DNA of 24,000 nucleotides from contig NZ_CP063144.1 of the NCBI RefSeq assembly GCF_014962245.1, forward strand, positions 28,582-52,581, in the 5' to 3' direction. The translations under genes and the position numbers were made by a program. The notes under the pieces were generated by a model, which was given only the letters and a program-made list of their open reading frames with translations, searched no databases and was not told the origin of the DNA. Source of the DNA: Thermosphaera chiliense. Its GTDB lineage: Archaea; Thermoproteota; Thermoprotei_A; Sulfolobales; Desulfurococcaceae. Positions 3 through 18,442 of this stretch are shown piece after piece. The stretch's first letter is position 1. The number at the start of each line of letters is the position of its first letter.

Positions 3-1001
3 ATTAGCGATGAATGGCTGGATTCCCTTGCGGAAGCGGTTTACGAGAAGCTGAGAGAAGCCTCCGTGACACGGTTCGTGATAGGGGTTAGGCTGAGCAG
101 GAAGTTGCGTGAAAAGGAGCTGTCGCTGATTGCTGAAGCAGGTTTCACCAGGGCTGAGTCCTTGAAGAACGAGGTTAAGAGAGAAGTAGGGAAGAGGGTG
201 ATGATTAAATACGGGCTGATGCCGGATTTCGAGAAGCCTGAAGCAACTGCGATAGTAAAGCTTGATGAAGACCTCAACCACAAGGTTGAGCTAGTGATAA
301 CCCCGGTCCTGCTGAAAGGCGTGTACAATAAGAGAGGGCGCAACATCTCACACGTTCCATGGTTTACGAAGCAGGGTGGGAGGAAATACCCCTTGAGCAT
401 TCAAGAATACTTGGAGTCCCGGTTAACGATTCCGTTCAAGGCTAAAAAAGTGAAGATTCATGCCGCCGGGAGAGAAGATGTTGATGCTAGAACGCTTGGC
501 CCAGGCAGGCCGTTGGTGATAGAGATTGTTGAACCACTCGTCAGAAGCTACGATATTGGAAACATTAACGAGCTGATCCGTAGCGATCTCGTTGAGGTAA
601 GAGTTAGTGAGCCAGCTAGTAGGAGGGATATTGAGCTTCTAAAGCAAACCTCCAGGGAGAGGAGGAAAGTCTACAGGCTACTCGTAATCTCGCCCACCCC
701 TGTCAGCGAGACACAGCTGAATGAGCTGGAAGCGTTCTTTAGAAACGTTAGCATCCAGCAGAGAACCCCTATAAGAATCCTAGCCCGTAAGAAGGATGTC
801 CTCAGGGTGAGAAAAGTCTACGAGGTTAGAACAAGGCTGGTCACTTCCACAAGCTTTGAAGCACTGGTATACTGTGATGGAGGCTTATACGTTAAGGAGC
901 TGGTCCACTGTGACCAGGGCAGGACCAACCCCTGCTTCGCAAGCATCCTCAACACCGAGCTGAAGCCTGTTGAGCTGGACGTCCTCTACATCGAGCACTG
1001 A
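3..1001 (+). CDS. pus10: tRNA pseudouridine synthase Pus10 (C-terminal catalytic part; 5' end lies outside the window)
   Basis: The reading frame is open from nt 3 to the window edge (ISDEWLDSLAEAVYEKLREAS precedes the listed M). It has the Pus10-type catalytic motif AGREDVDARTLGPGRPLVIEI and sits in the conserved archaeal neighbourhood upstream of rpl21e-rpoF. Confidence 0.8.
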   Translation: MSDEWLDSLAEAVYEKLREASVTRFVIGVRLSRKLREKELSLIAEAGFTRAESLKNEVKREVGKRVMIKYGLMPDFEKPEATAIVKLDEDLNHKVELVITPVLLKGVYNKRGRNISHVPWFTKQGGRKYPLSIQEYLESRLTIPFKAKKVKIHAAGREDVDARTLGPGRPLVIEIVEPLVRSYDIGNINELIRSDLVEVRVSEPASRRDIELLKQTSRERRKVYRLLVISPTPVSETQLNELEAFFRNVSIQQRTPIRILARKKDVLRVRKVYEVRTRLVTSTSFEALVYCDGGLYVKELVHCDQGRTNPCFASILNTELKPVELDVLYIEH

Positions 1002-1069
1002 AGTTTAAGATAAAGTTAAAAACGGGAGTTTTCAATTCTGTATTAAGAAATGCTGAGAGGAGTTAACAA

Positions 1070-1387
1070 ATGGTTAGAGCTCCAAGAGGCTTACGCCATA
1101 GGACCAGGAAGTTGTTGAAGAAGAATGTGAGAGAAAAGGGGAGCGTGCCTCCTCTAAGCCTGCTACTAGTAGAGTATAAGGAGGGAGACGTAGTCCACAT
1201 TAAGATTAACCCTTCCGTGCACGAGGGGATGCCGCACAGGCGATACCATGGCAGGACAGGTGTCGTGATAGGGAGGAGAGGATTATCCTACATAGTGAAG
1301 GTTATGGCTGGGGATAAGGAAAAGATTTTGTTCGTCAGGCCGGAGCATTTAAGGCTGGCCTCGAGCAGCCAGGTCAAACCAATTTAA
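1070..1387 (+). CDS. rpl21e: 50S ribosomal protein L21e (eL21)
   Basis: The N-terminus MVRAPRGLRHRTRKLLKK and the length of 105 aa are typical of eL21. A GAGGAG Shine-Dalgarno-like box lies about 8 nt upstream of the ATG. Confidence 0.9.
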   Translation: MVRAPRGLRHRTRKLLKKNVREKGSVPPLSLLLVEYKEGDVVHIKINPSVHEGMPHRRYHGRTGVVIGRRGLSYIVKVMAGDKEKILFVRPEHLRLASSSQVKPI

Positions 1388-1425
1388 ACTCCTCCACTCA
1401 TATATAAGTTAGGTGGTGTGATTAT

Positions 1426-1791
1426 TTGAGCGAGATACCTTTGCTCGAGGAGAAGCCCTTAACAAACCCTGAAGCGCTTAATGAGTTGAAGAAAGTAATT
1501 GATAGGCTGCAGGCGCAGGGCGTGCCCATACCCCTGTTGCTTACTCGAACCTACGAGTATTTGAAACGCTTTTCCAAAATACCGTATGAGAAGGTGGGCG
1601 AGGTCAAGGAGTTTTTAAGGTCGAAAGGTCTCAGGGAAGAATCCATAGTAATGATTGTAAACATATGCCCTAAAACCGTGGATGAGTTGAGGCCTCTTCT
1701 AGAGCTCGAGGAGAAAGTCTTGGAAACAGCTGTGGCTGAGGAAATAGTAAACTTTGTAAGCCAATACTGTGTCGAGAACACCGGTAAGTAA
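1426..1791 (+). CDS. rpoF: DNA-directed RNA polymerase subunit F (Rpo4, Rpb4-like)
   Basis: 121 aa with a TTG start. It is acidic and helical, with LTRTYEYLKRFSK typical of Rpo4/RpoF, and holds the conserved position after rpl21e. Confidence 0.75.
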   Translation: MSEIPLLEEKPLTNPEALNELKKVIDRLQAQGVPIPLLLTRTYEYLKRFSKIPYEKVGEVKEFLRSKGLREESIVMIVNICPKTVDELRPLLELEEKVLETAVAEEIVNFVSQYCVENTGK

Positions 1792-1812
1792 GCATCACAA
1801 ATCATGTTCTAA

Positions 1813-2457
1813 ATGGTGGTTTACATGTCTCTTTTCAGGCCAGATAATCCTAGGCGGCAGGAGCATCCTTGGGAAAACTCGATGATAGTGTTGGATTACA
1901 TGGAGCTTGGAAACCCTTCAGACCGCCATTACGAGCACAGAAACCAGCCGCTGGTTCAGGGCGTGGGCACCAAGTACTTCACCCTCCTGGAGGCAAACCC
2001 CCTGCCAGCTGTCAGGATCGATATCCTGGAGAAGGTGGAGCTGGGATATCCCAGTAAGGTGAAGAGGATTATTCAGATCCACTACGACGATCTCACAAGC
2101 ATGGCGAAAGCAAACCTGCCCGAGGCCTTGAAGATGATTATAAACGAGAATGAAAAGGTCTTCGTAGAATTCTTCAACATCGCAGACCCTGTTAACATCA
2201 GGCTCCACGCTTTAGAACTACTGCCCGGTATTGGTAAGAAAACGATGAGGCTCATACTTGACGAGCGGGCTACTAGGAGGTTTGAAAGCTTCGAAGATAT
2301 AAGGCAGAGGGTTAAGATTGAGCCGGTCAAGATAATCATTGAGAGATTGTTGAAGGAGTTCATGGGCGGGGAGAAATATTACTTGTTCCTGAAGCCGAGG
2401 GAGAGGGACGCGATATATCTAAGATACTTAGAGAGGCTTTACGGTGAAATATTATAG
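1813..2457 (+). CDS. DUF655-family protein (predicted OB-fold plus helix-hairpin-helix RNA/DNA-binding protein of unknown function)
   Basis: The motif VLDYMELGNPSDRHYEHRNQPLVQGVGTKYFTLLEA and a C-terminal HhH-like LELLPGIGKKTMRLIL match DUF655. It sits in the conserved position between rpoF and ksgA. The start could instead be the internal Met at codon 5. Confidence 0.75.
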   Translation: MVVYMSLFRPDNPRRQEHPWENSMIVLDYMELGNPSDRHYEHRNQPLVQGVGTKYFTLLEANPLPAVRIDILEKVELGYPSKVKRIIQIHYDDLTSMAKANLPEALKMIINENEKVFVEFFNIADPVNIRLHALELLPGIGKKTMRLILDERATRRFESFEDIRQRVKIEPVKIIIERLLKEFMGGEKYYLFLKPRERDAIYLRYLERLYGEIL

Positions 2458-2507
2458 AGCTCCCGGAGCTTGACAGGGCATCGCTTGTCTCATGGACTAT
2501 TAACACT

Positions 2508-3257
2508 TTGAAAAGACATGGGATAAGGCCTTCGAAAAAGTTAAGCCAGAACTTCGTGGTAAACCCTAGGCTAATATCCGATATTTTATCGTTAACAAGT
2601 AGCGAGGACACTGTAGAGATTGGGTGCGGGATAGGAACCCTCACAATATTCCTGATCAACAGGGTCAGGTCCCTGGCCTGCGTCGAGTATGATGAAAGAA
2701 TGATCAGAGTCGTCGCCAGCATTGTTAGAAACCCCCGGTTCATACCTGTTAGAGGGGATGCTTTAGCAACAGGGGTTGGAAGACCCCAAGTAGTATCCAA
2801 CCTGCCCTACCATGTAACATCCGACATGCTCATAATGATTGCAAGGGATAATTCTGTTTCAAAGGCTGTTCTCACCCTTCAAAAAGAGGTTGGGGATAGG
2901 CTGGTCGCCAAGCCCGGTTCAGAATCCTACGGAAGGCTCAGCGTGATAGTGCAACTACTCTTCAATTTAAGAGTTGCAGGAGTCTACCATCCCGGGTCGT
3001 TTATCCCGCGGCCTAAGGTAGCGTCAAGCCTGCTCCTGCTTGAACGCAGGAGAACCTATGATAGGGTGGTTGAAAAGGTTGAGCATGTGACAAGGGCTTT
3101 GTTCAGCCAACGGAGAAGAAATGCTAGGAGGGTTGCAGAGTCCCGCCTAAGCCTTAGCGCCGAGGTTTTAAACAGGATTATCCCATCTGATAAAAGGGTT
3201 TTCGAGCTAGAGCCCGAGGTGTTCCTCGCATTAGCGGAAGAATTAGCGAGTACATAG
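2508..3257 (+). CDS. rsmA: 16S rRNA (adenine1518/1519-N6)-dimethyltransferase KsgA/Dim1
   Basis: KKLSQNFV (the GQNFL-type motif), the SAM loop VEIGCGIGTLT and the catalytic SNLPYHVTS are present. The TTG at 2508 is the first start-type codon in the open frame. Confidence 0.9.
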   Translation: MKRHGIRPSKKLSQNFVVNPRLISDILSLTSSEDTVEIGCGIGTLTIFLINRVRSLACVEYDERMIRVVASIVRNPRFIPVRGDALATGVGRPQVVSNLPYHVTSDMLIMIARDNSVSKAVLTLQKEVGDRLVAKPGSESYGRLSVIVQLLFNLRVAGVYHPGSFIPRPKVASSLLLLERRRTYDRVVEKVEHVTRALFSQRRRNARRVAESRLSLSAEVLNRIIPSDKRVFELEPEVFLALAEELAST

Positions 3258-3850
3258 TTGGAGAACTGAGAATCATCGCTCACGGAAACGTTTATAAGCC
3301 GAGCGATGACACCTGGCTACTTATCAACCTGGTAGATGAGGTAAAGCCAAGTGGAAGAGTCTGCGTCGACCTGGGCTCAGGGACAGGTGTGGTGGGTTCT
3401 CACCTGGTTTCACAAGGTTATTGCCAGCTAGCCGTGCTCGTGGACGTGGTGGAGGATGCGCTGATATCTAGCAGGGACACTGTAGAGGCTAACAACCTGT
3501 CCAGCAGAGGCATTGTGATCACCAGTGTTGAAGCCCTTAACGACGGCTCCGTGGACATGGTAGTGAGCAATCCTCCCTATCTCCCAGCATACGATCCCGG
3601 CAAGATAGATATCGCTACTGAGGGAGGTGTGAAAGGCTATGAGACGGTGGCCTACTTCATCAGGGAGTCCTCCAGGATTTTAAAACAAGGTGGTTTCCTA
3701 TTCCTGGTCTACTCCTCGCTAACCGGGGAGGAGGCTGTTGAGTCCCTGCTTGCGGAGAACGGTTTCGAAAAGATCAAAACGACTGTTTCAAAATTCTTTT
3801 ATGAAGAAATAAAGGTTGTTTACTGTAGGAGAAAGGGGCAGGCTAAATGA
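3254..3850 (+). CDS. Mtq2/HemK-like (N5-glutamine / small-domain) SAM-dependent methyltransferase; start codon unresolved
   Basis: The NPPY motif (VVSNPPYLP) lies in the listed ORF 3389-3850. The family N-terminal motif NVYKPSDDTWLL and the SAM loop VDLGSGTG are encoded in the same frame upstream (3257-3388), where no ATG, GTG or TTG exists. The 3254 (ATA) start is a guess. The stop overlaps the next gene's ATG (ATGA). Confidence 0.7.
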   Translation: MVGELRIIAHGNVYKPSDDTWLLINLVDEVKPSGRVCVDLGSGTGVVGSHLVSQGYCQLAVLVDVVEDALISSRDTVEANNLSSRGIVITSVEALNDGSVDMVVSNPPYLPAYDPGKIDIATEGGVKGYETVAYFIRESSRILKQGGFLFLVYSSLTGEEAVESLLAENGFEKIKTTVSKFFYEEIKVVYCRRKGQAK

Positions 3851-4545
3851 TTAGGGTTGTGCTCGTAGGCATAGAGGGTGCTTACAACCTCGGCGTGATC
3901 TCAAGGACGTGTGTTAACTTTAAAGTGAATGAGCTCTACCTTGTCAACCCGTCAGCATCGGTAGAGGAGGCATTACTGTACTCTGCGAAGGGAAGGGAAT
4001 TCCTGGAGAAAGCCGTCGTTGTCAGCTCGCTTGACGAAGCTCTTAAAGGAGTTGACGCATCCGTGGCGACAAGCGCTAAAGGGTATTCACCGGGCGACGT
4101 GCTCAGGCAAGCCATTGATATCGAGACCTTCACCTCCCAAATAGCCCCCAGGATAGGGAGAATGGCTCTTGTCTTCGGCAGGGAGAGCACAGGGTTGACT
4201 AGAGAGGAGCTTGCTAAGACGGATTTCATTGTTTCAATACCGGGCAACCCGGAATACCCTGTTTTAAACGTTAGCCAAGCAGTAGCAATCTTCCTGTGGG
4301 AGCTGTGGAAGATTCGCAGGGAGCAATCCCTAAACATAGCCCCTTCCGCCCCTCGCGAGGAGGTTGAGGCCCTTATATCCCTGGTTGACAATATTTCGTC
4401 GGCAATTATTTCCACGCCGGAGAAGGCTAGGAGAGCGGGGCTTGTGTGGAGGAGGATTCTGCACAGGGCGAGGCCCACGGCTTACGAGGCGCGTGTTTTA
4501 AAATACTGGCTTTACAGGGTCAGGAGCAAGCTTGGCGGGGGCTAA
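3847..4545 (+). CDS. SpoU/TrmH-family RNA 2'-O-methyltransferase, TrmJ-like
   Basis: The SPOUT motifs LVFGRESTGLTREEL and IPGNPEYPVLNVSQAVAIFLWEL are present. A 4-nt ATGA overlap with the upstream methyltransferase suggests translational coupling. Confidence 0.8.
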   Translation: MIRVVLVGIEGAYNLGVISRTCVNFKVNELYLVNPSASVEEALLYSAKGREFLEKAVVVSSLDEALKGVDASVATSAKGYSPGDVLRQAIDIETFTSQIAPRIGRMALVFGRESTGLTREELAKTDFIVSIPGNPEYPVLNVSQAVAIFLWELWKIRREQSLNIAPSAPREEVEALISLVDNISSAIISTPEKARRAGLVWRRILHRARPTAYEARVLKYWLYRVRSKLGGG

Positions 4546-9037: not shown

Positions 9038-9103
9038 AAGCCTCTCCAAGCATATTAATTGTTGCTTGAAAATAATAACCTCTTGGGAACGGTGTCCTCC
9101 ACC

Positions 9104-9616
9104 ATGGCCGAGTTCAGAATAGAGGTCAAGCCTATTGGGGTAGTCCACGTTGAAGCAGGTGATGAGGAGGTTAAGAAGAGCGTTAACGGGGTTCCAGGGG
9201 TTGTTGAAATATTCCCCGAGTACGAGCAAGGCTTGAAAGGGCTGGAAGGCTTCTCGCACATAATCCTTGTAACATTCCTGCATAAGACTAGTGATCGAGA
9301 CAGGGAAACACTGCTGGTTAAGCCACGGAGGCTTGTCAAATATGGTTTCACACTGGAAGAACTACCGTTAATAGGGGTTTTCGCAACCGACTCCCCTCAC
9401 CGTCCAAACCCGATCGGGGTTTCAATAGTCGAGCTGGCTAGAGTTGAAGGCAGGTTTCTACATGTCAAGGGGTTGGACGTGTTCAACGGAACCCCTGTGC
9501 TGGATTTGAAGCCCTACACGCCCGGCAGGGTTGTGCGGGAGGTTAGGCTACCGGAATGGTATGCTAGCCTGCTGGAGAAGGCGAGGAGGGTTGAGCCCGG
9601 GCTGAGCGACCTGTAA
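9104..9616 (+). CDS. TrmO/TsaA (YaeB, UPF0066) family SAM-dependent tRNA methyltransferase
   Basis: VKPIGVVH, EIFPEYEQGLKGLEGFSHI, GVFATDSPHRPNPIGVS and GTPVLDLKPYTP are the family hallmark motifs. The start is set at the ATG at 9104 (MAEFRIEVKPIG). Confidence 0.85.
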   Translation: MAEFRIEVKPIGVVHVEAGDEEVKKSVNGVPGVVEIFPEYEQGLKGLEGFSHIILVTFLHKTSDRDRETLLVKPRRLVKYGFTLEELPLIGVFATDSPHRPNPIGVSIVELARVEGRFLHVKGLDVFNGTPVLDLKPYTPGRVVREVRLPEWYASLLEKARRVEPGLSDL

Positions 9617-12852: not shown

Positions 12853-13668
12853 TTGAATCCTAAGGAGAGATTGGAGTTAATAGCTAAGTCACCAATAACG
12901 TTCACCCATCTCAGGCGGATAAACATTGCCGCAGGCATATTACACTCCATCACCGGTGTTTTAATGCTGATTCTAGGAGTGCTGCTGGAATGGGAGCGGC
13001 CTATATATACTTTCTACCTGAAATTCGATGTAAGCCAGTTCCCGTTCAGGATCTATCCGAACCCGCAGGTACTCTTCACGCTGAGCAATCTCGGCGTACT
13101 GGTTGCATCATTCCCATTGATGTCTGCAATAGCCCACTTCACAATAGCATTCCTCAAGTTTGACAAGTATGTTGAAAACTTGAAGAAAGGGATGAACCCA
13201 TACCGCTGGTACGAGTACTTCTTCTCCAGCTCAGTGATGATCGTGCTAATAGCCTTGTTCATCGGCGTTCTCGATCTCTGGTCCCTTGTCATGATTTTCA
13301 CCTTAAACGCTATCACGATGATGTTCGGCTACTTAATGGAGCTGTTAAACCAGTACACCGAGAAGACCAACTGGACGCCTTTCATACTGGGATGCTTCAC
13401 CGGCGCAGTCCCATGGATAGTCCTGTTCGCATACTTCGCCGCAGCGATTTCATCAGCAGGCACTAACCCGCCAGCGTTCGTCTACGCAATATTCTTCATA
13501 TACTTCATCGTCTTCAACGTCTTCGCTCTGAACATGTTCCTACAGTACAAGAGCGTTGGCAAGTGGAGAGACTACCTTTACGGCGAGAGAATGTATATTA
13601 TACTGAGCCTGGTGGCTAAGACCATACTTGCATGGCTTGTGTTCATAGGAGTGTTCGCACCGTTTTAA
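12853..13668 (+). CDS. Heliorhodopsin (type-1-like, inverted-topology retinal protein)
   Basis: Seven predicted TM helices with long blocks nearly identical to heliorhodopsin 48C12 as I recall it. These are RWYEYFFSSSVMIVLIA (48C12 RWVEYSLSSSVMIVLIA), PFILGCFTGAVPWI (PFWFGCIAGIVPWI) and GERMYIILSLVAKTILAW (GERAYIVLSLVAKSALAW). The Schiff-base Lys (K256, codon 13618-13620), counterion Glu (E121, codon 13213-13215) and both conserved His (H31, H95) are present. The start is TTG. Confidence 0.88.
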   Translation: MNPKERLELIAKSPITFTHLRRINIAAGILHSITGVLMLILGVLLEWERPIYTFYLKFDVSQFPFRIYPNPQVLFTLSNLGVLVASFPLMSAIAHFTIAFLKFDKYVENLKKGMNPYRWYEYFFSSSVMIVLIALFIGVLDLWSLVMIFTLNAITMMFGYLMELLNQYTEKTNWTPFILGCFTGAVPWIVLFAYFAAAISSAGTNPPAFVYAIFFIYFIVFNVFALNMFLQYKSVGKWRDYLYGERMYIILSLVAKTILAWLVFIGVFAPF

Positions 13669-13780: not shown

Positions 13781-13990
13781 TTGCTCTGCGTTAAAATACT
13801 TCCTGAAAGCGTTGAAAAATGCTTCAGCGTTGAGAAAGCGCTTCTGAAAAACATTGTAGAAGGGTTGAAGGAGGAGGTTGAAGGATACAACATCCTCGTC
13901 CTCGTTAACGATAAGCTCGTTGAAAACTACGACTTGGAAATCACTAGTGCCGATAGAATTATAGTAGTGAAGGAAAATATAGGGGGATAA
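13781..13990 (+). CDS. ThiS/SAMP-like beta-grasp ubiquitin-like protein with C-terminal Gly-Gly (Ubl-1)
   Basis: 69 aa with a TTG start. It has a ThiS-like layout (VLVNDKLVENYDLEITSADRIIVVKENIGG) and ends exactly in GG before the stop. Confidence 0.65.
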   Translation: MLCVKILPESVEKCFSVEKALLKNIVEGLKEEVEGYNILVLVNDKLVENYDLEITSADRIIVVKENIGG

Positions 13991-14020
13991 GCGTATTATA
14001 ACGGTAAGGGTGAGGCCTTT

Positions 14021-14284
14021 TTGAAGGTAACCGTGGTATTCCTGGGAAGAGCTAGCGAGCTATCCCAGAAGTCAATAATAACGGTTGAGCTACCTGAGAA
14101 CGCAACACTCTACGACTTGTTGAAAAAGCTTGGTGAGGCAGTTAACCCGCGGATTTTCACCAAATTCCTCGAGGGCCAATACGTGTTCGTGACATACGTG
14201 AACGACACCCCCACTATCTCGCTCACAACCCCGTTGAAAGATGGTGACAGGGTTTCGCTTATAACCCCGGAAATGGGTGGTTGA
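14021..14284 (+). CDS. MoaD/SAMP1-like beta-grasp ubiquitin-like protein with C-terminal Gly-Gly (Ubl-2)
   Basis: 87 aa with a MoaD pattern: MKVTVVFLGRASEL, VELPENATLYDLLKKL, LKDGDRVSLITPEMGG-stop. Confidence 0.8.
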   Translation: MKVTVVFLGRASELSQKSIITVELPENATLYDLLKKLGEAVNPRIFTKFLEGQYVFVTYVNDTPTISLTTPLKDGDRVSLITPEMGG

Positions 14285-14289
14285 GAAGC

Positions 14290-15036
14290 TTACTGCTCTA
14301 GGCACACCTGGCAGTCAAACTTCTTAATCTCTATTATTTCGAGACTGTTTGTTTTACCATTGAATAAGGCTATTTTATTAATCAATGGTTCCCCTATGCC
14401 TAAAACAATCTTAACAACTTCATTAACTTCCAGCAGTCCTATCAACCCGGGAATATGCCCCATCACTATTACAGGCTTCTTCTCCGCCTTCTCAACCCCT
14501 TTGAACAAACACCTTAAGCAGGGTGTTTTCCCTGGTATAATAGTTGTTAACTGCCCGTAGAACTCCCCAACGCCGGCGTGAACCAGGGGTTTTCCAAGCC
14601 TCCAGCAAGCCTTGTCCAGGACGAACCTTGTCTCCCAGTTATCCAGGGCGTCGACAACCACGTCGGCCTTGCTTACGTAATCATCTATTGTTTCCTCAGT
14701 GATTCTCGCGTGAACCGGTACTATGTCAACGTTAGGATTGAGTTTTCTCAGCTTATGGTATGCTGCAACTACTTTAGGCTTACCTAAGTCGTCAACAGTG
14801 TAGAGGATTTGCCTTTGAAGATTGCTCAACTCCACTAACCCTTCATCTATAACGATTACTCTGCCAACACCCATGGCAACCAGGTAGTAGAGAACAGAGG
14901 AGCCCAGTCCCCCGGCCCCGGCAACCAGGATGCTCGAGCCTTTAAGCCTAAGCTGCCCCTCAACCCCAATCAAAGGGATTTGCCTACTGTACCTTTCAAG
15001 CTCCTCAGCGCTAAGCACGCCTGCCCCCGCGCTCAA
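14290..15036 (-). CDS. MoeB/ThiF/UbaA-type E1-like Ubl-activating (adenylating) enzyme, minimal form without a rhodanese domain
   Basis: RYSRQIPLIG, the nucleotide loop VAGAGGLGS, IDEGLVELSNLQRQ and two CxxC zinc pairs (CLRC and CQVC) are present. It starts 2 nt after the stop of Ubl-3. Confidence 0.88.
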   Translation of the reverse strand: MSAGAGVLSAEELERYSRQIPLIGVEGQLRLKGSSILVAGAGGLGSSVLYYLVAMGVGRVIVIDEGLVELSNLQRQILYTVDDLGKPKVVAAYHKLRKLNPNVDIVPVHARITEETIDDYVSKADVVVDALDNWETRFVLDKACWRLGKPLVHAGVGEFYGQLTTIIPGKTPCLRCLFKGVEKAEKKPVIVMGHIPGLIGLLEVNEVVKIVLGIGEPLINKIALFNGKTNSLEIIEIKKFDCQVCLEQ

Positions 15037-15038
15037 CC

Positions 15039-15242
15039 CTACCCACCCGACTTAACCGTGAAGACTGTTACCGCATCCCCATCAACAACTTCGTCATCCT
15101 CGACGAGTATTTCACCATCTTTTAAAACAACGTACTCGGTAGGGTTCAGCCCTAGTTTTGCCAACAGGTCTTTAACCCTGATCCTGGATGCTTCAATAAT
15201 CCTCGGCTCTTTTTCACCCGTCACAGTGACTTTAACAGGCAT
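15039..15242 (-). CDS. ThiS/SAMP2-like beta-grasp ubiquitin-like protein with C-terminal Gly-Gly (Ubl-3)
   Basis: 67 aa, with VKDLLAKLGLNPTEYVVLKDGEILVEDDEVVDGDAVTVFTVKSGG-stop. It lies directly upstream of, and on the same strand as, the E1-like gene. Confidence 0.8.
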   Translation of the reverse strand: MPVKVTVTGEKEPRIIEASRIRVKDLLAKLGLNPTEYVVLKDGEILVEDDEVVDGDAVTVFTVKSGG

Positions 15243-15266: not shown

Positions 15267-16109
15267 TTATCCAGGCTTCTCGTAAAAAGGTATTCTACCA
15301 TCGTGATAATCCCTTATGATAGCTCTCGCGGCCTCCTCTATCAAGGGCTCCCGCGTGGTCTTGTAAAACCATCCTCTTTTAACAGCATAGTGTTCAAGAA
15401 TCCCCAGAGGATCCTGTGCTTCGATACCGTAGGTTTTAACGAATGCTTCCTTATCGTAGCCTAGTATCTTCTTTATGAGCTCGATCGCAGGGTTCACTGG
15501 GTCCGGGAGCTTCTCCGGCGGATACCCTCTTAAAACCCTCTCTAGATCCCCGCCCTCCACCGGTATTACACCGGGGGTGTCGATCATGTAGATGTCCTCG
15601 TCAATCCTGTAGAGCTGGAAGGTCCTAGTGTATCCTGGGCTCCCAGGGTAGGGGCTCGTAGGGGCTGAGTGGCGTCCTTTAAGGGCGTTGATTATTGAGG
15701 ACTTCCCTACCTTGGGATAGCCTGCCACCGCGACCGTTGCCGGGAATTCTCTCGCCAAGTGCTTGATTGTTCGGCGAAGCCTTAGAGTACCCATGTGCCT
15801 GGCAGCGGCAATGTAGACTGCGTGGTAGCCCCTGGCTTTGAAAAACTCCTTCCACTCATCAGCAACATCCCTGGGAACCAGGTCGCTCTTGTTGAGAACG
15901 AGAAGCAGTTGCTTGCCGTGCCTAGCAGTCATTGCCTCAAGCCTTTTGCTGAAAGTCTCCAGCGGCGTCCTAGCATCCAGGACCATTAACACAATGTCTG
16001 CTTTAGAAACCATCCTCTCCAGCTCGCTCCACGAGGCTAGTTTAAAAACCGTCGCTATCACCCCCGTATTTCTCAAACCTTTCCAAGGCTTCCACAGGGA
16101 TCTGCTCAA
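15267..16109 (-). CDS. Circularly permuted YlqF/RbgA (YawG)-family ribosome-biogenesis GTPase
   Basis: The G-motif order is permuted: G4 LNKSD, then G1 GYPKVGKSS, then G3 DTPG. The start is uncertain. The listed ATG at 16109 overlaps the upstream gene by 68 nt, and an alternative ATG at 16013 avoids the overlap. Confidence 0.8.
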   Translation of the reverse strand: MSRSLWKPWKGLRNTGVIATVFKLASWSELERMVSKADIVLMVLDARTPLETFSKRLEAMTARHGKQLLLVLNKSDLVPRDVADEWKEFFKARGYHAVYIAAARHMGTLRLRRTIKHLAREFPATVAVAGYPKVGKSSIINALKGRHSAPTSPYPGSPGYTRTFQLYRIDEDIYMIDTPGVIPVEGGDLERVLRGYPPEKLPDPVNPAIELIKKILGYDKEAFVKTYGIEAQDPLGILEHYAVKRGWFYKTTREPLIEEAARAIIRDYHDGRIPFYEKPG

Positions 16110-16641
16110 GCCAGTTGATCCTTAAGCCCGGCTCAAACCCGGCCTCCCCTCTTACCACCGCAAGGGCTTCACCAAGCACTACATCAATACTCTTCCCGGA
16201 AACATCCAGCTCGTAAATCTTATTCTCCCCGAAGGCTTCCAAGGCATTCACCGAGACCGTTCCAAGTATCTCAGCCATAACATTCTCATTAACCTTCTCC
16301 CTCCCCCACCCTCTATCCAGTAGCCTCTTCTCGAGCTCGAGAGGATTGAGCCTTAGAACAACAACCTTGTCCACGATGCCGGGGTCGATGATCTCTGGGT
16401 AGTGGGTATCTATGATGACGTAGCCATCCCTGTTCTCAACAATTCTTTTAATCCTTGAGGCAACGGCTTCCTCATCGATCACGTATGTTTTCCTTGAAGC
16501 ATCATACTCCAGGATGAGCCCGTTATCGATGGCGAACCTTGACAGGTCAATAGCCTCCGTGCCTAAGACTCTTGCAAGCTCCCTGGCCAAGCTCGACTTG
16601 CCCGTTCCCGGCACGCCTGCTATAATAATGGCTTTCCCCAT
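16042..16641 (-). CDS. Fap7/AK6-like adenylate kinase / NTPase (small-subunit rRNA maturation factor)
   Basis: It has the P-loop IIIAGVPGTGKSS at the N-terminus, VIIDTHY, VVVLRLNPLELEKRLLDRGW and ENVMAEIL (the Fap7 pattern VLR..P..L..RL..RG ... EN..AE). Confidence 0.75.
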   Translation of the reverse strand: MGKAIIIAGVPGTGKSSLARELARVLGTEAIDLSRFAIDNGLILEYDASRKTYVIDEEAVASRIKRIVENRDGYVIIDTHYPEIIDPGIVDKVVVLRLNPLELEKRLLDRGWGREKVNENVMAEILGTVSVNALEAFGENKIYELDVSGKSIDVVLGEALAVVRGEAGFEPGLRINWLEQIPVEALERFEKYGGDSDGF

Positions 16642-16747: not shown

Positions 16748-18442
16748 GTGAATGGTTTGACCCAGACAACGTTGAAGAGGCCTGGTGAGATATCTTACTC
16801 CTTGCCTAAGGTTAGGCAGGGGGAAGAGGTCTTATCCCTCACGTTAAGCGTGTGCCCATACTGCTACAGGGAGCTGGCAAGCATTATTGTTGAGAGAGAG
16901 GGAAAGGTTTACATTAGGAGGGTTTGCCCGGAGCACGGGGAGATAGAGGAGCTCTACTACGGTGATGTAGCCTTCTATAAGAAGGTGACAAGCTGGTATG
17001 AAGAAGGCCGCGGGGCACGCCACGTGTACACTCCTGTATCAACCCTCTGCCCCTTTAACTGCGGACTCTGCCCAATGCATAAGAACCACACCGCGTTGAT
17101 AAACATGGTTATAACCAATAGGTGTAACCTAAGTTGCTGGTACTGCTTCTTCTACGCTGAAGCCGCCGGATACGTTTACGAGCCAAGCCTTGAACAGATA
17201 AGGGACATGGTGAGAAGCATTAAGAAGCAGGGGGTAACGGTTGCGATACAGCTAACGGGCGGAGAGCCCCTGCTAAGGGATGACCTAATAGACATTGTCA
17301 AGCTCCTGAGGGATGAAGGGGTTAAACACATCCAGTTGAACACCAACGGGATAAAATTCGCAGAGCTATATCTCGAGGATCCTGCTAAAGCAGTGGAGTA
17401 CGCTAGGGCTCTCAGAAGCAACGGTGTCAACACAGTCTACCTCAGCTTCGACGGCGTGTCACCAGTGGTCAACTGGAAAAACCACTGGGAGGTACCATAT
17501 ATTTTCGAGACTTTCAGGAAGGCCGGGATGACCAGCGTCGTCCTGGTGCCCACTGTTATAAAGGGCGTGAACACTCACGAGCTGGGAGCTATACTAAAGT
17601 TCGCGGGGAGAAACATGGATGTTGTCAGAGCAGTGAACTTCCAGCCGGTAAGCCTTACAGGCTACATGAAGAAGCATGAAAGAGAGAAATACCGTATCAC
17701 AATACCCGACGTTGTCAAGCTCGTGGAGGAGCAGACAAACGGGGAGATCCACTCCAACGCCTGGTTCCCGGTCAACGTTAGCGCAATATTCTCAAGGTTC
17801 GTGGAAGGCTTCAGCGGCGAGTTCAAGTTTGAGATGAGCAACCACCCGATATGTGGTGTTGGAACATACGTTTACGTTGAAAGAAGCAACGGCAACGTCA
17901 AGTTCACCCCTATAACGGACTTCGTCGATATTGAAGGACTCCTCGAGTACTTGAAGGATAAGTGGGAGGACCTGGTTACAGGCTCTAGCAGGTTGACAAC
18001 AGGCCTACGCCTCCTCTACAGTATAAGAAAGTTTATCAACCAGGAGAAAGCTCCCGAGGGCTTCGACCTCTACAAGCTACTGTTTAACATTATTGTTAAA
18101 AGAAGCTATGAAGCCCTGGGAGAGCTACACTATAAGCTGTTGTTCATAGGGCAGATGCACTTCATGGACCTGTACAACTACGATATTCAAAGAGTTCAGA
18201 GGTGCAACATACACTACTCAGTACCTGATGGCAGGCTGATACCGTTCTGCGCGTTCAACATCTTTGACGACATCTACAGGGATAAGATACAGAGGGAGTA
18301 CAGCATCCCGGCGGAGGAGTACTCGGCTAAGTACAGCCTGCCCAAGGGGTATTTGACGAGAAAGTATGTGAGAGATAGGAGAAGGCTTGAATCCTCAGAG
18401 CTCTACAAGATTACTTATGAAGGATTGCTGGAGAAAAAATAA
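16748..18442 (+). CDS. Radical SAM enzyme of the Tes / GDGT-MAS (MJ0619-like) family, probable tetraether lipid synthase
   Basis: It has the radical SAM motif CNLSCWYC, preceded by a second Cys cluster CPFNCGLCPMH and an N-terminal rubredoxin-like CPYC...CPEHG knuckle, with a long C-terminal domain (564 aa). The start is GTG. The family assignment comes from remembered architecture, not from a search. Confidence 0.6.
   Translation: MNGLTQTTLKRPGEISYSLPKVRQGEEVLSLTLSVCPYCYRELASIIVEREGKVYIRRVCPEHGEIEELYYGDVAFYKKVTSWYEEGRGARHVYTPVSTLCPFNCGLCPMHKNHTALINMVITNRCNLSCWYCFFYAEAAGYVYEPSLEQIRDMVRSIKKQGVTVAIQLTGGEPLLRDDLIDIVKLLRDEGVKHIQLNTNGIKFAELYLEDPAKAVEYARALRSNGVNTVYLSFDGVSPVVNWKNHWEVPYIFETFRKAGMTSVVLVPTVIKGVNTHELGAILKFAGRNMDVVRAVNFQPVSLTGYMKKHEREKYRITIPDVVKLVEEQTNGEIHSNAWFPVNVSAIFSRFVEGFSGEFKFEMSNHPICGVGTYVYVERSNGNVKFTPITDFVDIEGLLEYLKDKWEDLVTGSSRLTTGLRLLYSIRKFINQEKAPEGFDLYKLLFNIIVKRSYEALGELHYKLLFIGQMHFMDLYNYDIQRVQRCNIHYSVPDGRLIPFCAFNIFDDIYRDKIQREYSIPAEEYSAKYSLPKGYLTRKYVRDRRRLESSELYKITYEGLLEKK

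What the first reader, a model, noticed from the sequence alone, without database searches (positions are those of the whole stretch)
13781..15242. Three different Gly-Gly-ended ubiquitin-like proteins packed around a single E1-like enzyme
Ubl-1 (69 aa, ...ENIGG), Ubl-2 (87 aa, MoaD-like, ...PEMGG) and Ubl-3 (67 aa, ...VKSGG) all end exactly in GG-stop. They flank one MoeB/ThiF/UbaA-type gene with almost no spacer. The Ubl-3 stop is 2 nt from the E1 start, and the Ubl-2 and E1 stops converge 5 nt apart. In the best-studied archaeal SAMP system, as I recall it, the three SAMPs are dispersed in the genome. A 1.5-kb cassette with three mutually dissimilar Ubls plus their activator is therefore an unusually compact SAMP/Urm1-type or sulfur-carrier module. 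No JAMM/MPN+ isopeptidase, E2, RING, MoaE, ThiG or NcsA partner is visible nearby, so the acceptor pathway is undefined.
Basis: partly seen in the sequence, partly recalled or inferred. Interest (0 to 1): 0.7.

Follow-up and report, generated by a model that had tools for sequence, protein, structure and literature searches.

The report
Three ubiquitin-like genes around one E1
A heat-loving archaeon (Thermosphaera) keeps three small ubiquitin-like sulfur-carrier genes next to the single enzyme that activates them; the cluster is real and conserved in its relatives, but it belongs to an already known archaeal system.

Summary
Four ORFs lie where reported: Ubl-1 (13781-13990, +), Ubl-2 (14021-14284, +), a ThiF/MoeB/UbaA-type E1 (14290-15036, -) and Ubl-3 (15039-15242, -). 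All three small proteins end in GG-stop. All three are genuine beta-grasp ThiS/MoaD-superfamily genes under purifying selection. Ubl-3 is SAMP2-like and Ubl-2 is MoaD-like. Ubl-1 has no Pfam hit of its own but belongs to a narrow Desulfurococcales family; it models as a beta-grasp and relates by profile to SAMP2.

The cassette is not peculiar to this genome. The same triple arrangement occurs in Desulfurococcus mucosus, D. amylolyticus/kamchatkensis and other Thermosphaera, inside a conserved kinase-GTPase-Ubl3-E1 operon. Staphylothermus and others carry subsets. The supplementary tables of Makarova & Koonin (2010) already list E1-Ubl linkage, including these loci, with the Ubl-1 ORF left unassigned.

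It is probably an adenylation-only activator.

The best reading is one E1 charging three sulfur carriers, for tRNA thiolation and pterin cofactor. Protein tagging is possible but secondary. Verdict: new member of a known kind, modest interest.

The parts
13781..13990 (+). Ubl-1: 69-aa GG-ended beta-grasp protein, a divergent ThiS/SAMP2-like member of a family restricted to Desulfurococcales. It is annotated 'hypothetical protein IMZ38_00255' in Thermosphaera chiliense.
   Evidence: It has no Pfam or NCBIfam hit on its own. Its family comprises 36 clusters, all from Desulfurococcales-type archaea. Of 34 members, 18 hit PF02597 ThiS. The family profile hits P. furiosus SAMP2 (5LDA_B) at E=5.8e-4 over the full length. 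hhalign gives 96% probability against both the Ubl-3 and Ubl-2 families. The AF2 model has pLDDT 90.5, and its top Foldseek matches are MoaD, ThiS, TtuB, SAMP1 and ubiquitin. dN/dS is 0.19.
14021..14284 (+). Ubl-2: 87-aa MoaD-like GG-ended Ubl (...TPEMGG), in arCOG00536 by orthology.
   Evidence: It hits PF02597 ThiS at E=4.7e-8, above the gathering score. It scores below cut-off for TIGR01687 moaD_arch (26.7 against 49.5) and for SAMP1. Its profile hits the P. furiosus MoaD-family structure 1VJK at E=2.4e-7. dN/dS is 0.04. A GGTGAGG SD-like motif lies at 14009-14015.
14290..15036 (-). E1-like adenylyltransferase of the MoeB/ThiF/UbaA family, with no rhodanese domain and no crossover-loop catalytic cysteine. 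The real start may be the GTG at 15018.
   Evidence: It hits PF00899 at E=4.9e-71. Its best solved relatives are E. coli ThiF (3e-45) and MoeB (3e-38). Those alignments show the RxxRQ, GxGGLG, SNLQRQ and DxxDN motifs and both CxxC pairs conserved, with a gap or Lys at ThiF C184 / MoeB C187. The Cys is absent in all archaeal orthologues examined and present in the bacterial MoeB loci. The protein is below every NCBIfam equivalog cut-off, for example UbaA at 204 against 450.
15039..15242 (-). Ubl-3: 67-aa SAMP2/ThiS-type GG-ended Ubl (arCOG00535 by orthology), translated just upstream of the E1 in the same operon.
   Evidence: It hits PF21965 SAMP2 at E=2.1e-11 and PF02597 at 2.6e-7, both above gathering. 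Its profile hits P. furiosus SAMP2 (5LDA_B) at 8e-15 and T. thermophilus TtuB at 1e-7. dN/dS is 0.15. An SD-like GGTGG precedes the ATG.
15267..16109 (-). YlqF/RsgA-like circularly permuted GTPase. It is the conserved upstream operon neighbour of Ubl-3 and the E1, giving context rather than a proven functional part.
   Evidence: It hits Pfam MMR_HSR1 and RsgA_GTPase, and TIGR03596 YlqF at 3.7e-31, below cut-off. It lies directly upstream of the E1/Ubl-3 in every related locus seen.
16042..16641 (-). AAA_18 / PRK03839-type putative nucleotide kinase (Fap7/adenylate-kinase-like). It is the first gene of the conserved kinase-GTPase-Ubl3-E1 gene string, again context only.
   Evidence: It hits PF13238 at 1.6e-21 and NF003012 at 3e-26. 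Synteny is conserved, and the published tables list it as arCOG01038-arCOG00350-arCOG01676.

Best explanation
This is a conserved Desulfurococcaceae gene cluster. It encodes one MoeB/ThiF/UbaA-type E1-like adenylyltransferase and three paralogous beta-grasp ThiS/MoaD-family proteins: two short SAMP2/ThiS-like ones (Ubl-1 and Ubl-3) and one MoaD-like one (Ubl-2).

Proposed mechanism. The zinc-containing E1, probably a dimer, binds each Ubl in turn and uses ATP to adenylate its C-terminal glycine. This step is inferred from intact ATP, Mg and Arg-finger motifs. The E1 has neither the crossover-loop cysteine nor a rhodanese domain, so it cannot form an E1~Ubl thioester or acyl-persulfide. The acyl-adenylate is therefore resolved by an outside sulfur donor, either sulfide or a protein persulfide, to give Ubl-COSH. 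This step is also inferred.

The thiocarboxylates then feed sulfur to acceptor enzymes encoded elsewhere. Ubl-3 most likely serves an NcsA/TtuA-type tRNA 2-thiouridine synthetase. Ubl-2 most likely serves tungsto- or molybdopterin synthesis or a related reaction. Ubl-1 would be a lineage-specific extra carrier whose acceptor is unknown.

Covalent tagging of proteins may occur as a secondary outcome, through the adenylate or the thiocarboxylate, as in other archaea. It is not the primary design.

The confidence of 0.62 is for the sulfur-carrier-first mechanism. That the four genes are a genuine E1 plus three genuine Ubls is about 0.9.
For: The gene identities are well supported. The E1 hits PF00899 at 4.9e-71, Ubl-2 hits ThiS, and Ubl-3 hits SAMP2. 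Ubl-1 is a beta-grasp by family profile, AF2 model (pLDDT 90.5) and Foldseek. All three are under purifying selection.

The adenylation motifs and the Zn cysteines are conserved, while the position of MoeB C187 / ThiF C184 is a gap or Lys. The same holds in all archaeal orthologues and in the 120 nearest homologues.

The triple cassette is conserved in D. mucosus, D. amylolyticus and Thermosphaera MAGs and in D. kamchatkensis. Subsets occur in Staphylothermus and others.

In S. marinus the arCOG00535 ThiS, which is the Ubl-3 family, sits next to an arCOG00042 Ncs6/MesJ-type PP-loop ATPase. The Ubl-3 profile also matches the tRNA-thiolation carrier TtuB.

The related genomes D. kamchatkensis and S. 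marinus have one E1, several Ubls and no JAMM protease, and they have MoaA/B/C with or without MoaE.

There is precedent for one E1 serving three Ubls for the tungsten cofactor and tRNA thiouridine in T. kodakarensis (PMC11323500). According to PMC9574740, sulfur-carrier proteins typically do not form thioesters.
Against: No acceptor enzyme (MoaE, NcsA/TtuA, ThiI) lies in the window, and I could not search the rest of the genome.

D. kamchatkensis has a separate MoaD inside a moaA-moaC-moaD-moaE operon, so Ubl-2 need not be the molybdopterin-synthase subunit. S. marinus keeps Ubl-1, Ubl-2 and the E1 although no MoaE was listed for it.

Some orthologues carry residues after the GG: SGGS and TGGL in L010, MGGST, and LGGHLGGHTLSK. 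This implies C-terminal processing, as in modifier precursors.

Ubls of T. kodakarensis and Sulfolobus do form protein conjugates.

No biochemical step was tested here.
Confidence: 0.62

Rival explanations
1. The cluster is primarily a protein-tagging (sampylation/urmylation-like) system. The E1 activates three different modifiers, which are attached to lysines of target proteins. Given the operon with a ribosome-biogenesis GTPase and a kinase, the targets could be translation or ribosome-biogenesis factors.
For: Ubl-3 belongs to the SAMP2 family. Several orthologues of Ubl-1 and Ubl-3 have extra residues after the GG, which suggests maturation by a protease. In S. acidocaldarius an E1-like enzyme plus Urm1 plus ATP is enough for conjugation without E2 or E3 (PMC4569737). 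All three T. kodakarensis Ubls form conjugates. [quoted passage not shown] The linkage to the GTPase and kinase genes is conserved.
Against: The E1 lacks the crossover-loop cysteine. In the Haloferax model this cysteine forms the UbaA~SAMP thioester intermediate, and from my own knowledge UbaA C188 is required for sampylation. No JAMM/MPN+ protease is present in the window, and none is listed for D. kamchatkensis or S. marinus. No E2 or RING was found.
Confidence: 0.22
2. This is an ordinary MoaD/MoeB pair, or a ThiS/ThiF pair for thiamine, and the other small ORFs are chance ORFs that happen to end in GG.
For: Ubl-1 alone has no Pfam or NCBIfam hit and starts with TTG. It is annotated 'hypothetical protein'. 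The E1 matches ThiF and MoeB best among solved structures.
Against: Ubl-1 is conserved as a GG-ended 68-72 aa ORF across Desulfurococcales, with dN/dS 0.19, a confident beta-grasp model and profile links to SAMP2/ThiS. Ubl-3 is a clear SAMP2-family member. According to PMC2948915, archaeal ThiS genes are not linked to thiamine genes and archaea make thiamine by a distinct pathway; Thi4 (arCOG00574) is listed in these genomes. Ubl-2 is below the moaD equivalog cut-offs.
Confidence: 0.03
3. Ubl-1 is a decaying or redundant duplicate of Ubl-3 with no separate function, retained only by linkage.
For: Presence of Ubl-1, Ubl-2 and Ubl-3 varies between lineages. L007 and L008 have only Ubl-3. Staphylothermus lacks Ubl-3 at this locus. 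The L082 Ubl-2 is a pseudogene. Functional redundancy of Ubls has been shown in T. kodakarensis.
Against: The Ubl-1 family is old. Its members are 25-40% identical yet keep their length, Pro8 and the GG terminus. It is under purifying selection, and it is kept even where the E1 is absent from the locus, as in L086.
Confidence: 0.1

Closest known systems
Thermococcus kodakarensis UblA/UblB/UblC with the single E1 TK2117 (Hidese et al. 2024, PMC11323500)
   Same: Both are hyperthermophilic archaea with one MoeB/ThiF-type E1 and three GG-ended ThiS/MoaD-type Ubls. In both, one Ubl gene is in an operon with the E1 (tk2118-tk2117). The T. kodakarensis proteins have shown roles in tungsten-cofactor synthesis and tRNA thiouridine, plus some conjugation.
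   Different: In T. kodakarensis the other two Ubl genes are dispersed. Here all three flank the E1. Ubl-1 belongs to a family found only in Desulfurococcales. Whether TK2117 has the crossover-loop Cys was not examined here.
Haloferax volcanii SAMP1/SAMP2/SAMP3 with UbaA and HvJAMM1
   Same: Both have one rhodanese-less E1 serving MoaD-like and ThiS-like GG-ended Ubls with dual sulfur-carrier and modifier potential. Ubl-3 matches the SAMP2 Pfam family.
   Different: From my own knowledge, the Haloferax genes are dispersed and UbaA has an active-site Cys (C188) needed for conjugation. The Haloferax model invokes a UbaA~SAMP thioester and JAMM cleavage. The E1 here has no such Cys, and no JAMM is seen in the window or listed for close relatives. 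It scores 204 against a cut-off of 450 for the UbaA equivalog model.
Bacterial MoaD-MoeB and ThiS-ThiF sulfur-carrier pairs (E. coli; PDB 1JW9, 1ZFN, 1ZUD)
   Same: They share the same E1 fold and motifs, at about 38-45% similarity-level matches. The Ubl-1 model superposes on MoaD and ThiS. The adenylation-then-thiocarboxylation chemistry is the model proposed here.
   Different: MoeB and ThiF keep a crossover-loop Cys (C187 and C184) that is missing here. The bacterial genes sit with moaE or thiG/thiH partners, which are absent from this cluster. Here there are three carriers per E1.
Thermus thermophilus TtuB-TtuC-TtuA tRNA 2-thiolation system
   Same: The Ubl-3 profile matches TtuB (E=1.3e-7), and the Ubl-1 model matches TtuB structures. 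In both systems one E1 serves several carriers.
   Different: No TtuA/NcsA gene lies in this window. The link rests on S. marinus ThiS-arCOG00042 adjacency and on general archaeal context.
Sulfolobus Urm1 with the E1-like ELSA (Anjum et al. 2015, PMC4569737)
   Same: Both are crenarchaeal systems with a single rhodanese-less E1-like enzyme and no E2 or E3.
   Different: Sulfolobus Urm1 is a distinct family (arCOG00540) and is not adjacent to the E1. Conjugation and proteasome targeting were shown there but not here.

Membership tests
ThiS/MoaD beta-grasp sulfur-carrier / Ubl superfamily (PF02597; SAMP2 PF21965) | C-terminal Gly-Gly immediately before the stop | tested here: met
   All three ORFs end in GG-stop. 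The GG is invariant or nearly so across 34 Ubl-1 family members and in the Ubl-2 and Ubl-3 orthologues.
ThiS/MoaD beta-grasp sulfur-carrier / Ubl superfamily (PF02597; SAMP2 PF21965) | Significant match to the family sequence model | tested here: met
   Ubl-2 scores 33.9 bits against a cut-off of 22.5. Ubl-3 scores 44.5 against 27 for SAMP2 and 31.5 against 22.5 for ThiS. Ubl-1 alone gives no hit. However, 18 of 34 family members hit PF02597, the profile hits SAMP2 5LDA_B at 5.8e-4, and hhalign gives 96% to Ubl-2 and Ubl-3.
ThiS/MoaD beta-grasp sulfur-carrier / Ubl superfamily (PF02597; SAMP2 PF21965) | Beta-grasp fold | tested here: met
   The Ubl-1 AF2 model has pLDDT 90.5 and pTM 0.74. Its Foldseek top hits are MoaD, ThiS, TtuB, SAMP1 and ubiquitin, with TM 0.6-0.74 and probability about 1.0. 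For Ubl-2 and Ubl-3 the fold follows from homology to the solved structures 1VJK and 5LDA_B. These are predictions, not experiments.
ThiS/MoaD beta-grasp sulfur-carrier / Ubl superfamily (PF02597; SAMP2 PF21965) | C-terminus adenylated by an E1 and converted to a thiocarboxylate | not testable with these tools
   This needs biochemistry. Only gene adjacency to an E1 supports it.
MoeB/ThiF/UbaA E1-like adenylyltransferases (PF00899, arCOG01676) | ThiF-family Rossmann domain with the nucleotide-binding and Arg-finger / Asp motifs | tested here: met
   PF00899 at E=4.9e-71. RYSRQI, GAGGLG, SNLQRQ, GKPK and DALDN align with the MoeB and ThiF motifs.
MoeB/ThiF/UbaA E1-like adenylyltransferases (PF00899, arCOG01676) | Structural Zn site with two CxxC pairs | tested here: met
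   CLRC and CQVC are present and aligned to ThiF and MoeB. Desulfurococcus orthologues have CLRY in place of the first pair.
MoeB/ThiF/UbaA E1-like adenylyltransferases (PF00899, arCOG01676) | Crossover-loop cysteine (MoeB C187, ThiF C184, UbaA C188, Uba4 C202) | tested here: not met
   The position is a gap or Lys in the alignments to ThiF and MoeB. No Cys occurs in that loop in any archaeal orthologue or in the 120 nearest homologues, whereas the bacterial MoeB loci have it.
MoeB/ThiF/UbaA E1-like adenylyltransferases (PF00899, arCOG01676) | Reaches a curated equivalog cut-off (UbaA, MoeB or ThiF) | tested here: not met
   The scores are below cut-off for UbaA NF047750 (204 vs 450), MoeB TIGR02355 (168 vs 377), ThiF TIGR02356 (198 vs 275) and the best-scoring model, PRK08328 (239 vs 339). 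It belongs to the superfamily but to none of the named equivalogs.
Haloferax-type sampylation (protein conjugation) system | E1 active-site Cys able to form an E1~Ubl thioester | tested here: not met
   The requirement itself comes from the Haloferax model and from my own knowledge of UbaA C188.
Haloferax-type sampylation (protein conjugation) system | JAMM/MPN+ desampylase or maturase | tested here: not met
   None is found in the 24-kb window. None is listed for D. kamchatkensis or S. marinus in PMC2948915 Table S1. The rest of this genome could not be searched.
Haloferax-type sampylation (protein conjugation) system | Isopeptide-linked Ubl-protein conjugates | not testable with these tools
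   This needs mass spectrometry or immunoblots.
Molybdopterin synthase small subunit MoaD (for Ubl-2) | Reaches the moaD model cut-off and is paired with MoaE | tested here: not met
   TIGR01682 scores 15.6 against 66.2, and TIGR01687 moaD_arch scores 26.7 against 49.5. No MoaE is present in the window. D. kamchatkensis has a different MoaD inside its moaA-C-D-E operon. Failing membership does not exclude a role in pterin sulfuration.
TtuB/Urm1/SAMP2-type tRNA 2-thiolation carrier (for Ubl-3) | Similarity to TtuB/SAMP2 and linkage to an Ncs6/TtuA PP-loop ATPase | tested here: inconclusive
   Similarity is met: SAMP2 at 8e-15 and TtuB at 1.3e-7. No PP-loop ATPase lies in the window. The linkage is seen only for the S. 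marinus arCOG00535 member.

The most novel reading that the evidence does not exclude
Ubl-1 may define a third Ubl lineage, restricted to Desulfurococcales, with its own acceptor that is still unknown. Together with a cysteine-less E1 and a conserved operon with a ribosome-biogenesis GTPase and a Fap7-like kinase, it could mark a thioester-free tagging or sulfur-delivery route acting on the translation apparatus. That route would need no E2, E3 or JAMM and would differ from the Haloferax, Sulfolobus and Thermococcus systems.
Probability: 0.12. Interest if true: 0.55.

Novelty: new member of a known kind. Interest (0 to 1): 0.3.

Why it matters
The finding gives a tidy natural case for studying how one minimal E1 tells apart three divergent ubiquitin-like substrates, because all four genes lie within 1.5 kb and come from a hyperthermophile whose proteins should be stable. 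The absence of the E1 cysteine across the whole clade makes it a good test of whether archaeal Ubl activation, and any protein tagging, can proceed without a thioester. That question bears on how ubiquitin signalling evolved from sulfur carriers. The work also assigns the 'hypothetical protein' IMZ38_00255 and its unassigned counterparts in D. kamchatkensis and S. marinus to the ThiS/SAMP2 superfamily. None of this overturns current understanding.

Tried and rejected
- Pfam and NCBIfam scans of Ubl-1 alone found nothing. The word-indexed homologue search found only 4 near-identical proteins. The exhaustive phmmer search and then a profile search were needed to find the family.
- Several long proteins (600-2500 aa) match residues 16-56 repeatedly. 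I treated them as compositional (Glu/Lys/Leu-rich) matches and left them out.
- The sigma-70 promoter and terminator scan does not apply to an archaeon and was ignored.
- My first script flagged some Desulfurococcus E1s as having a loop Cys. This was an artefact: they have CLRY instead of CLRC, so the pattern failed. They have no crossover-loop Cys.
- I could not look for MoaE, NcsA, JAMM or rhodanese in the rest of the Thermosphaera genome. I used the phyletic tables of PMC2948915 for D. kamchatkensis and S. marinus as proxies.
- A literature search for 'Thermosphaera chiliense' returned nothing.
- I considered thiamine ThiS/ThiF and rejected it, on the published absence of ThiS-thiamine gene linkage and the distinct thiamine pathway in archaea.
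- I considered Ubl-1 being a spurious ORF and rejected it.
Full report
**Observation.** The window comes from Thermosphaera. The Ubl-1 protein is identical to 'hypothetical protein IMZ38_00255 [Thermosphaera chiliense]' on a 1.3-Mb contig. The E1 is identical to an nr entry named for T. aggregans.

| Gene | Coordinates | Length | C-terminus |
|---|---|---|---|
| Ubl-1 | 13781-13990 (+) | 69 aa | ...ENIGG* |
| Ubl-2 | 14021-14284 (+) | 87 aa | ...PEMGG* |
| E1 | 14290-15036 (-) | 248 aa | n/a |
| Ubl-3 | 15039-15242 (-) | 67 aa | ...VKSGG* |

The Ubl-2 and E1 stops converge 5 nt apart. The Ubl-3 stop is 2 nt from the E1's longest-ORF TTG start. The E1 may really start at the GTG at 15018, because the close relative L001 has ATG there and the six preceding residues are not conserved. 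Only 4 of the 72 ORFs of 50-120 aa in the window end in GG, and three of them are these.

**Are the three small ORFs real Ubls?** Ubl-2 matches PF02597 ThiS above the gathering score. Ubl-3 matches PF21965 SAMP2 and PF02597.

Ubl-1 has no Pfam or NCBIfam hit, so it was the critical case. An exhaustive phmmer search of 1.84 billion representatives found about fifteen 63-78 aa relatives. A profile search of the 5.8-billion-protein set found 36 clusters. All of those that carry a name come from Desulfurococcaceae, Staphylothermus or Thermoprotei, and several are annotated 'MoaD/ThiS family' or 'ThiS'. The family keeps its length, an invariant Pro8 and the terminal GG. The further evidence is:
- 18 of 34 members hit PF02597 individually.
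- The family profile matches Pyrococcus furiosus SAMP2 (PDB 5LDA_B / 1RWS) end to end at E=5.8e-4.
- hhalign links the Ubl-1 family to the Ubl-3 and Ubl-2 families at 96% probability, with about 18% identity.
- An AlphaFold2 model built on the family alignment has mean pLDDT 90.5. Its best PDB matches are MoaD, ThiS, TtuB, SAMP1 and ubiquitin, with TM up to 0.74.

Against the 77-90% identical relative L001, dN/dS is 0.19 for Ubl-1, 0.04 for Ubl-2 and 0.15 for Ubl-3. The Ubl-3 profile matches PfSAMP2 at 8e-15 and TtuB at 1e-7. The Ubl-2 profile matches the P. furiosus MoaD-family structure 1VJK at 2.4e-7. All three are therefore genuine, mutually divergent beta-grasp ThiS/MoaD-superfamily genes.

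**The E1.** It hits PF00899 at E=4.9e-71 and has no rhodanese domain. Its best solved relatives are E. coli ThiF and MoeB. The alignments show the Arg finger, GxGGLG, SNLQRQ, DxxDN and both CxxC zinc pairs conserved. The position of ThiF C184 / MoeB C187 is a gap or a lysine. The protein's only other cysteine, in DKACW, aligns with a conserved Cys in MoeB and ThiF that lies outside the crossover loop.

The loop cysteine is absent from every archaeal orthologue in the fetched loci, while the bacterial MoeB homologues fetched in the same scan have it (P-x-C-x-E-A-G-V). None of the 120 nearest database homologues (45-100% identity) has it either. The protein falls below the curated cut-offs of all the NCBIfam equivalogs, namely UbaA, MoeB, ThiF and the best-scoring model PRK08328. 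I read it as an adenylation-only activator.

**Context and conservation.** No JAMM, E2, RING, MoaE, ThiG or NcsA domain occurs in the window. The E1 and Ubl-3 are the last genes of a conserved string: AAA_18 putative kinase, then YlqF-like GTPase, then Ubl-3, then E1. A Tes/HMPTM-type radical-SAM gene lies divergent upstream.

The complete triple cassette (Ubl3 -> E1 -> <- Ubl2 <- Ubl1) is present in Desulfurococcus mucosus, D. amylolyticus, a Thermosphaera MAG and the metagenomic relative L001. All of the small proteins there end in GG. Other lineages carry subsets:
- Staphylothermus has Ubl1 and Ubl2 but no Ubl3 at the locus.
- L007 and L008 have only Ubl3.
- L010 and L084 have Ubl3 and Ubl1.
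- L086 has Ubl3 followed by Ubl1 with no E1 between them.
- L082 has Ubl3, Ubl1 and a Ubl2 pseudogene.

**What was already known.** Makarova & Koonin (2010) reported 'many associations' of archaeal E1 genes with Ubl genes and linked ThiS-family Ubls to translation and tRNA modification. Their Table S2 lists these loci:
- D. kamchatkensis: arCOG01038, arCOG00350, ThiS (61 aa), E1, MoaD, then an unassigned 72-aa ORF.
- S. marinus: an unassigned 71-aa ORF, MoaD (89 aa), E1, arCOG00350, arCOG01038.

The cluster was therefore on record, but the Ubl-1 ORF had not been recognised as a Ubl. Their Table S1 gives D. kamchatkensis one ThiS, five MoaD-family proteins, one E1, one MoaE and no JAMM. It gives S. 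marinus one ThiS, three MoaD-family proteins, one E1, no MoaE and no JAMM. D. kamchatkensis has a separate MoaD in a moaA-moaC-moaD-moaE operon. The S. marinus arCOG00535 ThiS lies beside an Ncs6/MesJ-type PP-loop ATPase. T. kodakarensis offers an experimentally studied parallel: three Ubls and one E1, with roles in the tungsten cofactor and tRNA thiouridine, plus some conjugation.

**Mechanism proposed.** The gene identities, the motif conservation and the missing cysteine are shown. The rest is inferred:
1. The E1 adenylates the C-terminal Gly of each Ubl.
2. With no E1 cysteine or rhodanese domain, the adenylate is resolved by sulfide or an external persulfide to a thiocarboxylate.
3. Ubl-3 supplies tRNA 2-thiolation.
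4. Ubl-2 supplies pterin-cofactor or a related sulfuration.
5. Ubl-1 is a lineage-specific additional carrier.

[quoted passage not shown] Sulfolobus E1 plus Urm1 plus ATP conjugates without E2 or E3. Protein tagging is therefore not excluded, and the post-GG extensions in some orthologues hint at precursor processing. I put the sulfur-carrier reading at about 0.6-0.65 and tagging as the primary function at about 0.2.

**Verdict.** This is a lineage-typical, previously tabulated arrangement of a known system. Two small additions come out of this work: Ubl-1 is assigned to the ThiS/SAMP2 superfamily, and the E1 cysteine is missing across the whole clade.

Noticed in passing
window 12853-13668 (+): A full-length heliorhodopsin lies directly upstream of Ubl-1 in a hyperthermophilic Desulfurococcales archaeon. 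It hits PF18761 at E=1.8e-92, and its best PDB match is Thermoplasmatales TaHeR 6IS6 at 2.9e-59, with the LVAK(T/S) lysine motif aligned and conserved. The gene is absent from the syntenic position in Desulfurococcus (L090, L091) and a Thermosphaera MAG (L092). L001 keeps only a 31-aa C-terminal remnant (1812-1904, 93% identical). This looks like a recent gain or loss and an unusual host for a light sensor.
   Followed up: partly
P0059, P0062, P0068, P0072, P0090, P0093, P0107 (E1 orthologues; L090 4001-4783, L091 4001-4768): The E1 orthologues of Desulfurococcus and some other species have C-L-R-Y (or C-L-R-Q) in place of the first CxxC zinc pair. The structural zinc site seems degenerate in part of the clade.
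   Followed up: no
L010 3777-3995 and 4726-4944; P0014, P0027, P0028, P0041: Some orthologues of Ubl-3 and Ubl-1 carry residues after the GG (SGGS, TGGL, MGGST, TGGN, LGGHLGGHTLSK). This implies C-terminal processing in lineages where no JAMM protease is known.
   Followed up: no
L082 3015-3227 (+): The Ubl-2 homologue in Desulfurococcales archaeon ex4484_58 has two in-frame stops and ends in ...EMSG. It is a pseudogene or an assembly error, and it lies on the opposite strand relative to other genomes.
   Followed up: partly
L086 4522-4945: Ubl-3 is followed 4 nt later by Ubl-1, with no E1 gene between them. The E1 must be elsewhere in that genome or lost.
   Followed up: no
window 15267-16641 (-) and 16748-18442 (+): The gene string of Fap7-like AAA_18 kinase, YlqF-like GTPase and (Ubl3) E1 is strictly conserved and lies divergent from a Tes/HMPTM-type radical-SAM gene. 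The functional reason for coupling an E1/Ubl to ribosome-biogenesis-type factors is unexplained.
   Followed up: partly
window 13781-13990 and 14290-15036: The exact-match database names disagree on species. Ubl-1 is named for Thermosphaera chiliense and the E1 for Thermosphaera aggregans, probably through a shared identical-protein record.
   Followed up: no
window 66-4545 (+): The left end of the window is a run of translation and RNA-modification genes: Pus10, ribosomal protein L21e, Rpb4/RpoF, DUF655, a KsgA/Dim1-type rRNA dimethylase, and MTS and SpoU methyltransferases. A TrmO-like ORF lies at 9059-9616.
   Followed up: no
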